64,000 nt of DNA. Origin: Gammaproteobacteria bacterium. Lineage in GTDB: Bacteria; Pseudomonadota; Gammaproteobacteria; JAURND01. This document shows, piece by piece, positions 36,656-39,600 of this stretch (positions are counted from its first letter, which is position 1; every line of letters starts with the position of its first letter). The position numbers were made by a program. The stretch is from the NCBI GenBank assembly GCA_035546635.1, contig DASZWJ010000034.1, positions 159,548-223,547 on the forward strand, given 5' to 3'.

Positions 36656-39600
36656 TAAATGGATGGATTGATATGAAACCAACTGCCCTTGTTTTAGTTC
36701 TGTTATTGGCTTTGCTCGCCTTGTTGCAATACAAGCTGTGGTTTTCGCCAGATGGAATTGCTCAGTATTGGAAGCTAAAGCATGAAATTGCTAAGAATAA
36801 TCAGGAAAACGCGCAAATGCAGGACAGAAATTCACATATGGCGGCAGAGGTTAAAGATTTAAAACAAGGAGATGAAGCCATTGAAGAGCGGGCGCGTGAT
36901 GATTTGGGGTTGGTTAAACCGGGTGAAGTGTTTTATCAGATTGTGAATTAGGGTTTTTTCCTTCACCGTCATTCTTCACTGACGCTCCTAAAGACACCAT
37001 TTGAGTGAGCAAAATGATATTGTCATTCCCGCGAAGGCGGGAACCCATCCATGACAGGCAGAAAAATTCATTAATTTTATCAAAATGAAGTTCAATGGTT
37101 CTTTAAAAAGTTTGAGTGCCTGTTAAGAATGGGTTCCCGCCTTCGCGGGAATGACATAAGTTTTTTGAATTTTTTAATAACGATATGGCCTGCGCGAGAC
37201 AGTGTCTTTTTTAATTCTCCACGCTTTTTGTGGGGTGGGTGGCTCAGGTTGACAATTTAGCGAAAGAGGTAATCACCATTGAATCAACATCCAGCCAATA
37301 TCTGGGGAGTATTACCCGCCGCGGGCATTGGTAGGCGCATGGGGTATGAAATACCAAAGCAATACTTGATCGTTCAAGGTAAATCCATACTGCAACACAG
37401 CCTGCAATGTTTATTATCTCACCCGCGAATAAACAAAGTAGCGGTGGTCGTTGCTACACATGATACCTATTGGCCATTAATTAAAGACAAAATAGCTGAA
37501 AATCGCGTGCTTACTGTCCGCGGTGGCATGGAACGCTGCCATTCGGTTCATGCGGGCTTATTAGCGTTAGCGCCTATTGCCCAACCGGATGATTGGGTAT
37601 TGGTGCATGATGCGGTTCGGCCTTGTGTAAGGTTAATGGATATTGACCGCTTAATTTCAGGCGTTGAACATCATGCAACAGGTGGATTATTAGCCTTAGC
37701 AGTGCGTGATACTTTAAAATTAACTGATGAAGAAGGTAGAGTCATTCGGACGATGGATCGTACTGGTATCTGGCAGGCGCAGACCCCGCAAATGTTTCGT
37801 TTAGGGGAATTAACCGCTGCTTTAGCGCAAGCTATTCATAAAGGACAAACGATAACTGATGAAGCCGCTGCGATTGAACTGTTAGGGAAGCAGCCATTAG
37901 TGATACCAGGATCTATTGATAATATTAAAGTCACTCACCCTGATGATTTATTATGGTTAGAACGATATCTGGAAGCGAAAGAATGCGTATAGGTCATGGT
38001 TTTGATATACATCGATTTGAAATGGGTAAACCCCTAATAATAGGTGGCGTGCATATTCCCTTCCCACAAGGCATGAAGGCACATTCTGATGGTGATGTCT
38101 TGCTACATGCTGTATGTGACGCTCTACTTGGAGCGGCTGCCTTAAAAGATATAGGTTCGCATTTTCCTGATACAGATCCTCGGTATAAGGGCATAGATAG
38201 TCGTACTTTGTTGTGTAAAGTGGTAGAGTTATTGCAGGAAAAAGGTTTTAGTATCCAAAATATTGATGCCACCATTGTTGCAGAAAAACCCAAAATGGCG
38301 CCGCACATAGAGGCGATGTGTGATAATTTAGCCAAAGACACAGGGTTGGATAGAGGCTGTATTAATATCAAAGCGACTACTATGGAAAAATTAGGACCGA
38401 TTGGCCAAGGGGAGGCCATAGCAGTGCATGCAGTGGTATTGTTAGGAGATAAAGTTTGAGTAAAGATCCAAAAATGCAAATATTAATCAGCAATGATGAT
38501 GGCGTATACGCTGAAGGGATACGTGTGTTAGCTAATGCATTACAAGAATTAGCTACCATCAAAGTGGTTGCGCCAGACCGTAACCGCAGCGGTGCCAGCA
38601 ATTCACTGACTCTGGATAGGCCAATACGAATAAAAACCTTGGAAAATGGGTCTATCAGTGTAGAAGGTACGCCCACAGATTGTGTACATTTAGCGATTAC
38701 CGGTTTATTGGAAAAGCCTCCCAGTATGGTGGTATCTGGGATTAATGAGGGCGGGAACCTCGGAGATGACGTGATATATTCCGGTACGGTAGCGGCTGCA
38801 ATGGAGGGTCGTTTTCTGGGATTGCCTGCCATTGCGGTGTCTTTAGTCATTCCAGGGGGTAGCAGTCCAATTGCCTATCATTATGATACCGCAGGTGTCG
38901 TCGCCCAACGTCTAGTACAGCGTTTGATACAACACCCATTGCCTGCCAATACTATCCTTAATGTGAATGTGCCTAATTTACCACTGGAAGAACTCAATGG
39001 GTTTGAAATAACACGTTTAGGCACTCGTCATCAAGCGGAACGTACTATAGCCCAATTAGATCCTCGCGGCCATACGGTATACTGGGTAGGTCCTGCCGGA
39101 CTTGAGCAGGATGCTGGACATGGTACGGATTTCTATGCAATCCATACTAAGAAAGTATCTATTACACCGCTGTTGGTAGATTTAACACATTACCAAGCAT
39201 TTGATCCATTGGTACAATGGATTGCGGGTTTTTGATCTGGAAGCACGATAGTTCTGCCAGAGATACTCAAGTGGTACAAATCAAAGAAAAAATAATATGC
39301 GGCTATTCTCAAAATTATATGCGTACATGTTGTTCTGGGCTCAACACCGTCATGCTCCTTATTATTTAGGGGCGGTCAGTTTTATAGAATCTTCTTTTTT
39401 TCCAATCCCGCCCGATGTGATGTTGGCTCCCATGTGTCTGGCTCGGCCGGAACGCGCTATTTGGTATGCCACTGTATGTACGGTGACTTCCGTCATTGGT
39501 GCTTTATTTGGTTATATCATCGGCATGTTTTTCTTCCATTGGGCTCAGCCGCTGTTGATGCATTTTGGTTACGGGCTGGCCTATCAAAAAGTGCAGATTT

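What the first reader, a model, noticed from the sequence alone, without database searches (positions are those of the whole stretch)
37017..37160. About 145-bp element with perfect 28-bp terminal inverted repeats between ftsB and ispD
TGTCATTCCCGCGAAGGCGGGAACCCAT at 37021-37048 is matched by its exact reverse complement at 37129-37156. The two enclose an AT-rich, non-coding centre about 80 bp long. Each arm also contains its own hairpin. A perfect 28-bp TIR is unlikely by chance and is typical of a recently active MITE. Related tgtcatcc-containing hairpins occur at 30986-31010 and 59439-59481.
Basis: seen in the sequence. Interest (0 to 1): 0.55.

Follow-up and report, generated by a model that had tools for sequence, protein, structure and literature searches.

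The report
Ssn-nuclease hairpin repeat pair (SRM doublet)
The element is real, but it is a known kind of bacterial repeat: two inverted copies of the hairpin motif recognised by the recently described Ssn single-strand DNA nucleases, enclosing an AT-rich spacer; it belongs to a dispersed, MITE-like family found at many unrelated sites in other bacteria.

Summary
TGTCATTCCCGCGAAGGCGGGAACCCAT at 37021-37048 has its exact reverse complement at 37129-37156, around an 80-bp centre that is 70% A+T, between ftsB and ispD.

The arms are not private transposon ends. They match the published Ssn-related motif (SRM). This is the degenerate form of the Neisseria NTS/dRS3 hairpin, which small GIY-YIG nucleases (Ssn; Chenal et al. 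2025) bind and cut as single-stranded DNA. The 22-nt core occurs exactly in at least 120 genomes from many phyla. It usually forms "heads-outward" inverted pairs and sometimes encloses a ~95-aa GIY-YIG gene.

Elements homologous over arms and centre sit at six unrelated loci in metagenomes. Three of these are in one assembly and are 89-95% identical to each other.

Among relatives, the ftsB-ispD spacer is filled with an identical arm (IspD 86% identical), holds a different hairpin variant (74%), or is empty at 52 bp (64%).

None of the 25 pairs examined has a target-site duplication. The arm is identical in a relative that has diverged by 12-15%, so a perfect repeat does not show recent activity.

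Verdict: a NIME/REPIN-like non-coding member of the SRM-Ssn system. It is MITE-like in behaviour but not a classical MITE. It is a new member of a known kind, of low to moderate interest.

The parts
37021..37048 (+). Left arm: an Ssn-related motif (SRM, NTS-like). It has a YGTCA head, a 7-bp hairpin (stem 37026-37032 / 37037-37043, loop GAAG 37033-37036), then C and CAT.
   Evidence: Matches the published SRM search pattern exactly over these coordinates, with 0.11 matches expected per shuffled window. DNA hairpin of -8.4 kcal/mol. Three mismatches to the strict NTS consensus, at positions 1, 24 and 28.
37129..37156 (-). Right arm: the identical SRM on the minus strand, so the two GTCA heads face outward.
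   Evidence: Exact reverse complement of the left arm. SRM pattern match. Identical 28-mer at the same position in relative L125.
37049..37128 (.). AT-rich non-coding centre (80 bp, 70% A+T). Its outer thirds (37049-37074 and 37103-37128) continue the inverted repeat imperfectly.
   Evidence: The centre is homologous (78-80%) to the centres of elements in L153, L151 and L138. Mean pairwise identity across 7 copies is 0.55, against 0.95-0.96 for the arms.
37010..37020 (.). Left outer extension of the imperfect inverted repeat (CAAAATGATAT, an A-run).
   Evidence: Inverted repeat I1. An AAAATTC-like stretch recurs to the left of the head in L151, L138 and L227 (alignment A4). It is unresolved whether this is part of the element or a preferred target.
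37157..37178 (.). Right outer extension (TAAGTTTTTTGAATTTTTTAAT), with T-runs following the long hairpin.
   Evidence: A similar T-rich GAATTTT stretch follows the right arm in L151, L225, L138 and L227, and a T-run follows it in L125.

Best explanation
**What it is.** The element is a heads-outward inverted doublet of an Ssn-related motif (SRM) around an AT-rich spacer. It is a non-coding member of the NTS/SRM-Ssn repeat system. Its closest analogues are a Neisseria dRS3-RS-dRS3 (NIME) unit and a REPIN.

**What is shown by sequence.**
- Each arm, when single-stranded, folds into a short GC hairpin.
- Each hairpin is preceded by (Y)GTC and followed by C. In N. meningitidis SsnA, these are the positions reported to govern cleavage and binding.
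- Because the arms are inverted, the motif is present in its recognised orientation on both strands, with the heads at the two outer boundaries.

**What is shown by comparison.**
- The same arms flank small GIY-YIG (ssn) genes in other genomes.
- The same arms-plus-centre unit occurs at unrelated loci.
- The ftsB-ispD site is filled, differently filled, or empty in relatives.

**What is inferred.**
- The unit spreads, or spread, as a whole by a single-strand, hairpin-dependent route. That route leaves no target-site duplication.
- An Ssn nuclease encoded elsewhere in the genome probably supplies the cleavage.
- The arms are kept identical by the need to remain an Ssn substrate, or by homogenisation among copies.
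- At this site it is most likely a passenger. Any effect on ftsB-ispD transcription (a long RNA hairpin followed by U-runs) would be secondary.
For: **The arms are SRMs.**
- The SRM pattern of Chenal et al. 2025 (PMC11893778) hits the window only at 37021-37048(+) and 37129-37156(-). 0.11 hits are expected per shuffle.
- GTC before the palindrome and C after it are present in both arms.
- Across 154 copies of the core in 120 loci, C occupies the position after the palindrome (the second base after the 22-nt core) in 151, and a pyrimidine precedes GTCA in 146.
- Each arm forms a DNA hairpin.

**Distribution and architecture.**
- The exact 22-mer is found in at least 120 genomes of many phyla.
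- Adjacent SRM pairs are heads-outward in 41 of 51 cases, and in 30 of 33 for the window's own arm subfamily. There, five spacers are 77-81 nt, against 80 nt in the window.

**Link to ssn genes.**
- Pairs enclosing a gene always enclose a ~95-aa GIY-YIG ORF: L034, L078, L085 and L211.
- 5 of 7 GIY-YIG hits lie within 100 bp of a core.
- The Tyr-Tyr-Glu spacing of these ORFs equals SsnA Y6/Y17/E64.

**Dispersed whole-unit copies.**
- Homologues lie at dxr-bamA, xylB-xylA, rpsT-ABC and three other loci, 72-82% identical to the window element.
- Three copies within one assembly are 89-95.5% identical to each other, with unrelated flanks.
- Arm identity is 0.95-0.96, centre 0.55, flanks about 0.3.
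- Within-genome copies also occur in other phyla (L042/L099, L067).

**Occupancy in relatives and flanks.**
- Identical arm in L125, a different hairpin variant in L123, an empty 52-bp spacer in L124.
- No target-site duplication in 25 of 25 pairs.
Against: - No ssn gene lies in the 64-kb window (best E 0.42). The rest of the MAG could not be searched, so a cognate nuclease in this genome is unproven.
- Only one copy is present in 64 kb. Copy number in this genome is unknown.
- The arm fails the strict NTS and dRS3 consensus because the last palindrome base is C, not T. Only 12 of 154 core copies share this variant.
- Mobility of SRM units has not been shown experimentally by anyone. The paper only raises it as a hypothesis.
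- The empty site in L124 is too diverged to define insertion boundaries.
- The three FTIX01 contigs may not come from one organism.
Confidence: 0.8

Rival explanations
1. It is a classical MITE: a deletion derivative of a DDE-type insertion sequence, mobilised in trans by cut-and-paste. The 28-bp TIRs would be the transposase binding sites, and insertion would be recent.
For: Perfect terminal inverted repeats, small size, a non-coding AT-rich core, and an intergenic position. Dispersed whole-unit copies exist elsewhere.
Against: - There is no target-site duplication at any of the 25 pairs. The flanks tend instead to be palindromic: 4.64 of 10 matches against 2.89 +/- 0.30 in controls.
- The arms are conserved exactly across phyla and match the Ssn recognition motif.
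- No transposase is ever enclosed, only GIY-YIG ORFs.
- The arm is identical at the same site in a diverged relative, so the perfect TIRs do not indicate recent insertion.
Confidence: 0.05
2. It is a REP doublet (REPIN) mobilised by a RAYT, a Y1 tyrosine transposase of the IS200/IS605 superfamily.
For: The architecture is the same: two inverted hairpin-forming repeats with a short spacer, no TSD, and dispersed copies. Chenal et al. themselves draw this analogy.
Against: - The head is GTCA rather than the GTAG-type tetranucleotide of RAYT-associated REPs (own knowledge of Nunvar 2010 and Ton-Hoang 2012, which the paper cites).
- Every gene enclosed by the arms is a GIY-YIG nuclease, not a Y1 transposase.
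- SsnA has been shown to bind and cut this motif.
Confidence: 0.04
3. It is a host regulatory structure specific to the ftsB-ispD junction. Candidates are a transcription terminator or attenuator, an RNase III site, or a small RNA gene. On this view the resemblance to SRMs is incidental, or the element has been exapted.
For: - The RNA fold is very stable: -83 kcal/mol, z = -12.6.
- An A-run precedes the element and T-runs follow it.
- The arm is perfectly conserved in the 86% relative while its flank has diverged.
- Rfam's nearest family is a reported sRNA, WsnRNA46: 44 bits, E 3e-8.
Against: - It is absent from the 64% relative and replaced by a different hairpin in the 74% relative.
- The same unit occurs between unrelated genes elsewhere.
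- The consensus scan finds no terminator or promoter.
- The Rfam score is below the gathering threshold of 65.3.
- The U-run is separated from the perfect stem by a mismatched stretch.
Confidence: 0.08

Closest known systems
NTS / SRM repeats and the Ssn GIY-YIG ssDNA nuclease family (Chenal et al., Nat Commun 2025; PMC11893778)
   Same: The arm matches the SRM search pattern. It shares 25 of 28 positions with the NTS consensus, including the GTC head, the CCCGCG-AAG-GCGGG hairpin and the C after the palindrome. Copies with an identical core flank ssn-type genes on both sides, the NTS-ssnA-NTS layout described in the paper.
   Different: - It fails the strict NTS and dRS3 consensus (T>C at the last palindrome base, plus both end positions).
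- No ssn gene lies nearby (none in 64 kb).
- The host is an uncultured gammaproteobacterium, not Neisseria.
- The arm subfamily carries an extra conserved inner extension (CCYATCC...).
- Any role in natural transformation here is unknown.
Neisseria intergenic mosaic elements (NIME: dRS3-RS-dRS3; Parkhill 2000, Bentley 2007, PMC1797815)
   Same: Two inverted ~20-28-bp GC-rich repeats flank a lower-GC spacer of 50-150 bp. The arms are conserved while the spacers fall into many families.
   Different: This is a single isolated unit rather than an array. The dRS3 pattern ATTCCC-N8-GGGAAT is not met. Here the whole unit, centre included, is the repeated entity in related assemblies.
REP / REPIN elements with RAYT transposases
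   Same: An inverted doublet of hairpin repeats forming a long hairpin. It is intergenic and dispersed, leaves no TSD, and has an associated single-copy nuclease gene flanked by the repeats.
   Different: The associated protein has a different fold (GIY-YIG, not an HUH Y1 transposase). The head sequence differs. The motif is conserved across phyla, whereas REPs are species-specific.
Rfam RF02625 WsnRNA46 (Wolbachia sRNA 46; Mayoral et al. 2014)
   Same: It is the best Rfam match over the full model on both strands (44 and 38.8 bits). Its consensus is itself a heads-outward doublet of a GUCAU-headed hairpin ending ..GGAUCCAG, around an A/U-rich centre of similar length.
   Different: The score is below the gathering threshold (65.3). 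The hairpin stem sequence differs (the Wolbachia variant). Nothing shows that the window element is expressed as an sRNA.
Classical bacterial MITEs (for example Correia/CREE elements of Neisseria)
   Same: Small, non-coding, with terminal inverted repeats, intergenic and multicopy.
   Different: There is no target-site duplication. No DDE-transposase parent element is known. The ends are hairpins recognised as ssDNA.

Membership tests
SRM (Ssn-related motif, Chenal 2025) | Matches the degenerate search pattern HGTCWYN(0-2)YYVSBRHN(0-5)WNVSBRGN(0-2)RNCYNB | tested here: met
   Both arms match, and nothing else in the window does. 0.11 matches are expected per dinucleotide shuffle.
SRM (Ssn-related motif, Chenal 2025) | Forms a hairpin as single-stranded DNA | tested here: met
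   A 7-bp stem with a 4-nt loop, -8.4 kcal/mol, at most 1 of 200 shuffles as stable.
SRM (Ssn-related motif, Chenal 2025) | [quoted passage not shown] | tested here: met
   GTC precedes ATTCCC and C follows GGGAA(C) in both arms. The C is present in 151 of 154 core copies elsewhere.
SRM (Ssn-related motif, Chenal 2025) | Spatial association with a cd10448-type single-domain GIY-YIG (ssn) gene | tested here: inconclusive
   There is no GIY-YIG ORF in the 64-kb window. Identical-core and same-subfamily arms do flank ~95-aa GIY-YIG genes in L034, L078, L085, L089, L208 and L211. The rest of this genome could not be searched.
SRM (Ssn-related motif, Chenal 2025) | Bound and cleaved by the cognate Ssn only as ssDNA, on one strand | not testable with these tools
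   Requires biochemistry.
NTS (Neisseria Transformation Sequence, strict) | CGTCATTCCCGCGMAVGCGGGAATCYRG with at most 1 mismatch | tested here: not met
   Three mismatches, at positions 1, 24 and 28.
NIME (dRS3-RS-dRS3) | dRS3 = ATTCCC-N8-GGGAAT | tested here: not met
   No match in the window. The arm reads ATTCCC-N8-GGGAAC.
NIME (dRS3-RS-dRS3) | Inverted repeats flanking a lower-GC spacer of ~50-150 bp | tested here: met
   An 80-bp spacer at 30% GC, between arms at 61% GC.
Classical MITE | Terminal inverted repeats; small, non-coding | tested here: met
Classical MITE | Target-site duplication flanking the element | tested here: not met
   No direct repeat of 3 bp or more at the window element or at 24 other pairs.
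Classical MITE | Multiple dispersed copies of the whole unit | tested here: inconclusive
   One copy in the 64-kb window, and the genome could not be scanned. Homologous whole units lie at six unrelated loci in metagenomes, three of them in one assembly at 89-95% identity.
Classical MITE | Parent autonomous element with the same ends encoding a transposase | tested here: not met
   Only GIY-YIG nuclease genes are enclosed by these ends. No transposition activity is known for Ssn.
REP/REPIN-RAYT | Y1 (RAYT) transposase gene flanked by the repeats | tested here: not met
   All enclosed genes are GIY-YIG. RAYT profiles were not run on all neighbouring ORFs.
Rfam RF02625 WsnRNA46 | Covariance-model score at or above the gathering threshold (65.3 bits) | tested here: not met
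   44.0 bits (+) and 38.8 bits (-), E 3e-8 to 1e-6, over the full-length model.

The most novel reading that the evidence does not exclude
SRM doublets like this one may be the non-autonomous replicative units of a distinct class of mobile element driven by GIY-YIG (Ssn) nucleases acting on single-stranded DNA. On this reading:
- They are analogues of REPINs.
- They are present across most bacterial phyla.
- They propagate as whole arm-centre-arm units without target-site duplication.
- They tend to sit inside short palindromic or AT-rich intergenic sites.
- Several catalogued 'small RNAs' (WsnRNA46, and possibly FtrB and BTnc060) are transcripts of such elements.

Chenal et al. raised the IS-like layout only as a hypothesis. 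The dispersed whole-unit copies, the strong heads-outward bias and the variable occupancy of one site among relatives found here are consistent with real mobility.
Probability: 0.35. Interest if true: 0.6.

Novelty: new member of a known kind. Interest (0 to 1): 0.3.

Why it matters
As a genome feature it is ordinary: one more copy of a repeat whose motif and partner nuclease were described in 2025. It matters in three modest ways.

- **Annotation.** The arms generate spurious ORFs (MGSRLRGND..., ...VPAFAGMT...). They also break short-read assemblies: two independent contigs end in the right arm.
- **Age of the element.** Perfect terminal repeats in this family cannot be read as recent activity.
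- **Mobility.** The comparative data add circumstantial support to the still untested idea that SRM-bounded units are mobile. These data are whole units at unrelated loci, heads-outward doublets in 71 of 84 adjacent pairs, no TSD, palindromic flanks, and ssn-carrying versions with the same arms. They also suggest that some reported bacterial sRNAs, such as WsnRNA46, are transcripts of these units.

Tried and rejected
- **Other copies in the window.** Searches with up to 3 mismatches on the arm or the core found none.
- **Rfam at gathering thresholds.** Nothing at the element. The permissive scan gave only sub-threshold hits. The plant miRNA-precursor hits are generic long-hairpin matches and were dismissed.
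- **Consensus promoter/terminator scan of 36600-37400.** Nothing found.
- **ssn gene in the window.** None.
- **First metagenome scan.** The arm plus its inner extension as it reads in the window found 0 hits. A shorter subfamily pattern succeeded.
- **Extending the contig to sample more of this genome.** One look-up returned only short Logan contigs and the other found no record. Genome-wide copy number and the presence of ssn therefore remain untested.
- **NCBIfam.** It has no specific model for the flanked GIY-YIG proteins. The only PDB sequence relative is the UPF0213 protein 1ZG2, at E 2e-4.
- **Paper supplements.** None are held, and no follow-up papers on Ssn mobility were found.
- **Contig breaks in L122 and L125.** I considered them as evidence of multicopy status and rejected this. 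A long inverted repeat or hairpin can break assemblies by itself.
- **CRISPR repeat, integron attC site, IS110/phage target site.** I considered these as primary explanations. The inverted-pair layout and the Ssn literature fit better. Use as an integration target, as for dRS3 and Nf phages, cannot be excluded as a side role.
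Full report
**1.

The 28-mer TGTCATTCCCGCGAAGGCGGGAACCCAT lies at 37021-37048, and its exact reverse complement lies at 37129-37156. No shuffled window gave a match even with three mismatches allowed.

The 80-bp centre (37049-37128) is 70% A+T, against 57% for the window. Each arm folds alone, as DNA, into a 7-bp stem (TTCCCGC/GCGGGAA) with a GAAG loop at -8.4 kcal/mol.

The inverted repeat continues imperfectly on both sides: 37010-37074 pairs with 37103-37167 at 78% complementarity. The whole element is therefore one long imperfect palindrome. As RNA it folds at -83 kcal/mol, z = -12.6.

It sits in a 327-bp spacer between a DivIC/FtsB ORF (36673-36951) and ispD (37279-37992). 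The wider gene order is pyrG-kdsA-eno-ftsB-ispD-ispF-surE.

The window comes from an uncultured gammaproteobacterial MAG (GCA_964386165.1). Its nearest named IspD homologues, from Nitrosococcus and Thiodiazotropha, are only about 52% identical. There is only one copy in the 64 kb.

**2. The arms are a known, widely shared motif**

These include Bacteroidota, Chloroflexota, Patescibacteria, Planctomycetota, Nitrospirota, Acidobacteriota, Rickettsia and many Proteobacteria.

A sequence search of the literature led to Chenal et al. 2025 (Nat Commun 16:2388, PMC11893778). Their main findings are:
- They define the 28-nt Neisseria Transformation Sequence (NTS), CGTCATTCCCGCGMAVGCGGGAATCYRG. It contains the classical dRS3 repeat ATTCCC-N8-GGGAAT of the neisserial NIMEs (Bentley 2007, PMC1797815).
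- They define a degenerate "Ssn-related motif" (SRM) pattern.
- SsnA is a ~100-aa single-domain GIY-YIG protein (cd10448). It binds and cuts this hairpin only as single-stranded DNA, on one strand, just 5' of the motif.
- ssn homologues across bacteria are often flanked by the motif on both sides.
- In N. meningitidis the system restrains natural transformation.
- They note that NTS-ssnA-NTS looks like an insertion sequence and compare it with REP/RAYT. They do not show mobility.

**3. Membership, tested here**

- The SRM pattern matches the window at exactly the two arms and nowhere else, with 0.11 matches expected per shuffle.
- The strict NTS and dRS3 patterns do not match. The arm differs from the NTS at positions 1, 24 and 28, and position 24 changes the last palindrome base from T to C.
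- The bases reported as critical are present in both arms: GTC before the palindrome for cutting, and C after it for binding.
- Those bases are also near-invariant among 154 core copies elsewhere. C occupies the position after the palindrome (the second base after the 22-nt core) in 151, and a pyrimidine precedes GTCA in 146.

The arms are therefore SRMs of an NTS-like subfamily, but not canonical NTS or dRS3.

**4. Link to ssn genes**

Among the 120 genome loci there are 24 exact-core inverted pairs. Twenty-one enclose short non-coding spacers with start-to-start distances of 41-119 nt. Three enclose an ORF of about 95 aa (L034, L078, L085).
- These ORFs hit Pfam GIY-YIG with E values of 4e-17 to 3e-10.
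- Their Tyr-Tyr-Glu spacing (Y7/Y18/E65 and Y8/Y19/E66) equals that of the SsnA catalytic residues Y6/Y17/E64.
- A profile built from them finds 7 hits in 876 kb, and 5 of those lie within 100 bp of a core.

For the window's own arm subfamily (..GGGAACCYATCC), L211 has both arms around a GIY-YIG gene that appears frameshifted near its 3' end. L208 has an intact gene next to an arm.

No GIY-YIG ORF exists in the 64-kb window. The rest of the MAG could not be reached.

**5. Architecture**

Adjacent SRMs are overwhelmingly arranged like the window element, with the GTCA heads facing outward:
- 41 of 51 pairs in the genome loci.
- 30 of 33 pairs in the subfamily loci. There the spacers cluster at 2-5, 23-42 and 77-81 nt, against 80 nt in the window. 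One spacer of 334 nt holds ssn.

None of the 25 pairs has a target-site duplication. Instead the 10 nt outside the heads tend to be mutually complementary: 4.64 of 10 matches against 2.89 +/- 0.30 for shuffled pairings, above all 2000 controls.

**6. The whole unit is a dispersed repeat**

A scan of metagenomes with the window's arm subfamily gave 105 loci. Six of them carry elements homologous to the window element over arms and centre:

| Locus | Coordinates | Identity to window | Flanking genes |
|---|---|---|---|
| L151 | 1099-1256 | 81% over 158 nt | dxr and bamA |
| L138 | 4703-4850 | 81% over 155 nt | xylB and xylA |
| L153 | 403-536 | 82% over 134 nt | rpsT and an ABC transporter |
| L225 | 2090-2239 | 78% | other unrelated genes |
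| L227 | 9364-9530 | 75% | other unrelated genes |
| L179 | 6258-6371 | 72% | other unrelated genes |

L151, L138 and L153 come from one assembly (FTIX01). They are 89-95.5% identical to each other, with unrelated flanks.

Across the seven copies, mean pairwise identity by segment is:
- Arms: 0.95-0.96.
- Inner extensions and centre: 0.49-0.58.
- Flanks: about 0.3.

Invariance begins exactly at TGTCATTCCC and ends at GGGAATG. A short AT-rich outer inverted repeat (AAAATTC / GAATTTT) and T-runs recur outside several copies.

In other phyla, within-genome copies likewise share arms plus centre:
- L042/L099: 99% over 97 nt, including 7-9 nt of outer repeat.
- Two copies in a Rickettsia endosymbiont (L067): 82% over 155 nt, in flipped orientation.

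Between unrelated genomes, only the arms are shared. This matches the NIME picture of universal arms and many spacer families.

**7. The site in relatives**

| Relative | IspD identity | ftsB-ispD spacer |
|---|---|---|
| L125 (different sample) | 86% | Identical 28-nt right arm at the same place |
| L123 | 74% | 299 bp, with different GTCA-headed hairpins |
| L124 | 64% | 52 bp, no hairpin, same gene order |

- **L125.** Its contig begins 3 nt before the arm. The adjoining spacer has several indels, and ispF DNA is only about 85-88% identical.
- **L123.** The hairpins are GTCATCCCGCGG-TCAAG-CCGCGGGATGAC and an SRM match at 2880-2909. Both are embedded in a 68-nt imperfect inverted repeat.
- **L124.**

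The element is therefore neither a lineage-wide fixed regulatory hairpin nor demonstrably young. The perfect arms reflect constraint or homogenisation.

**8. How it most likely works**

Shown:
- The arms are SRM hairpins carrying the SsnA-critical bases.
- The same arms flank ssn genes elsewhere.
- The arm-centre-arm unit recurs at unrelated loci.
- Occupancy of the site varies among relatives.
- There is no TSD.

Inferred:
- The unit propagates by a single-strand, hairpin-dependent process that leaves no duplication.
- An Ssn nuclease encoded elsewhere in the genome nicks just outside each head. The heads-outward layout puts one cut site at each boundary, on opposite strands.
- Selection to remain an Ssn substrate, or gene conversion among copies, keeps the arms identical.

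Whether Ssn mobilises the units, merely restricts ssDNA that carries them as in Neisseria, or both, is untested. At this locus the element is most likely a passenger.

A secondary effect on transcription is possible, because a long RNA hairpin sits between an A-run and T-runs. It is not supported by the consensus scan.

**9. Rivals**

- **Classical DDE-type MITE.** It fails on the TSD and on the parent element.
- **REP/RAYT.** It shares the architecture but not the protein or the head sequence.
- **Locus-specific regulatory RNA.** It is contradicted by the empty and differently filled sites and by the copies at unrelated loci.

The closest Rfam family is WsnRNA46, a reported Wolbachia sRNA. 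It scores 44 bits, E 3e-8, over the full model, below the gathering score of 65.3. Its consensus is itself a heads-outward doublet of the Wolbachia GUCAU-headed hairpin. WsnRNA46 has been reported to act on murD and on host dynein (Mayoral 2014, as summarised in PMC12796755).

**10. Verdict**

- The MITE reading is partly right: it is a dispersed, non-coding, inverted-repeat element.
- It is wrong in kind: there is no TSD, the arms are Ssn recognition hairpins, and perfect arms do not indicate recent insertion.
- This is a new member of a kind described in 2025. Interest is low to moderate.
- The most novel reading still open is that SRM doublets are REPIN-like mobile units of a GIY-YIG-driven element class.

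Noticed in passing
window 59433-59481: A perfect 20-bp-stem hairpin, CCCCACATAGCTGTCATCCTGAGCGCAAGCGAAGGATGACAGCTATGTGGGG (DNA fold -26 kcal/mol, z = -9.4), lies between convergent ORFs. Its core GTCATCCTGAGCG recurs twice in relative L123 (5014, 6640) and once in L043 (2331, minus strand). Those copies end ..CGAAGGATGACAGC or ..CGAAGGATCTCC. It has the same layout as the NTS (YGTCAT head, hairpin, GGAT-C tail) but fails the published SRM pattern. It is probably a second Ssn-type hairpin family in this lineage.
   Followed up: partly
window 36950-37230 (Rfam permissive scan): The element gives sub-threshold hits to three catalogued bacterial sRNA families: WsnRNA46 (Wolbachia), FtrB (Francisella) and BTnc060 (Bacteroides). 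The WsnRNA46 consensus is itself a heads-outward doublet of a GUCAU-headed hairpin. These 'sRNAs' may therefore be transcripts of SRM doublet elements. A Francisella sRNA paper also contains ATTCCCGC/GCGGGAAT strings.
   Followed up: partly
L123 2778-2947 (ftsB-ispD spacer of the 74% relative): The same spacer holds a different element. It has a perfect hairpin, GCTCGTCATCCCGCGG-tcaag-CCGCGGGATGACGAGC, with GTCA heads on both strands. It also has a second SRM (2880-2909). Both lie inside a 68-nt, 76% complementary inverted repeat.
   Followed up: partly
24 SRM pairs in L004-L107 and the window element: The sequences just outside the two GTCA heads are often reverse complements of each other, but they differ between copies. 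Examples are CCCATTTT/AAAATGGG, GAAGCGCC/GGCGCTT, and CCTCCTCGG/CCGAGGAGG in L179. This could mean insertion into pre-existing palindromes, or formation of the doublet by inverted duplication. No explanation was tested.
   Followed up: partly
L122 1-12 and L125 1-29: Two independent short-read (Logan) contigs, from different samples, both start inside or 3 nt before the right arm. The element therefore breaks assemblies. This could result from the long inverted repeat itself or from multiple copies.
   Followed up: no
L151 8464-8599; L138 2762-2898 and 3061-3123: Another palindromic repeat family is shared by two FTIX01 contigs at 79-92% identity. Its core is GAGGGACGCCGTAAATCCATCCATGGAGGCTCGGAACCGACATCCATGTCGGTTAACGCCCTC. 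It is unrelated to the SRM arms, although it contains ATCCATCCATG, which resembles the window arm's inner extension.
   Followed up: no
window 36914-37048 (-) and 37129-37260 (+): Both arms seed spurious ORFs beginning MGSRLRGND.... The other strand of the motif encodes ..VPAFAGMT (seen in an L043 ORF). Such peptides are likely to appear as 'hypothetical proteins' wherever SRMs occur.
   Followed up: no
L211 464-797: The GIY-YIG gene enclosed by the window's arm subfamily appears frameshifted in an A-run near its 3' end...REKRIKK in one frame and WRREWKINLIE... in the next. This is either a pseudogene or an assembly error.
   Followed up: no
L123 2202-2384 and L124 2435-2611, compared with window 36659-36672: Both more distant relatives have a called 58-60-aa gene with no Pfam hit between eno and ftsB. 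In the window, eno and ftsB are only 14 bp apart.
   Followed up: no
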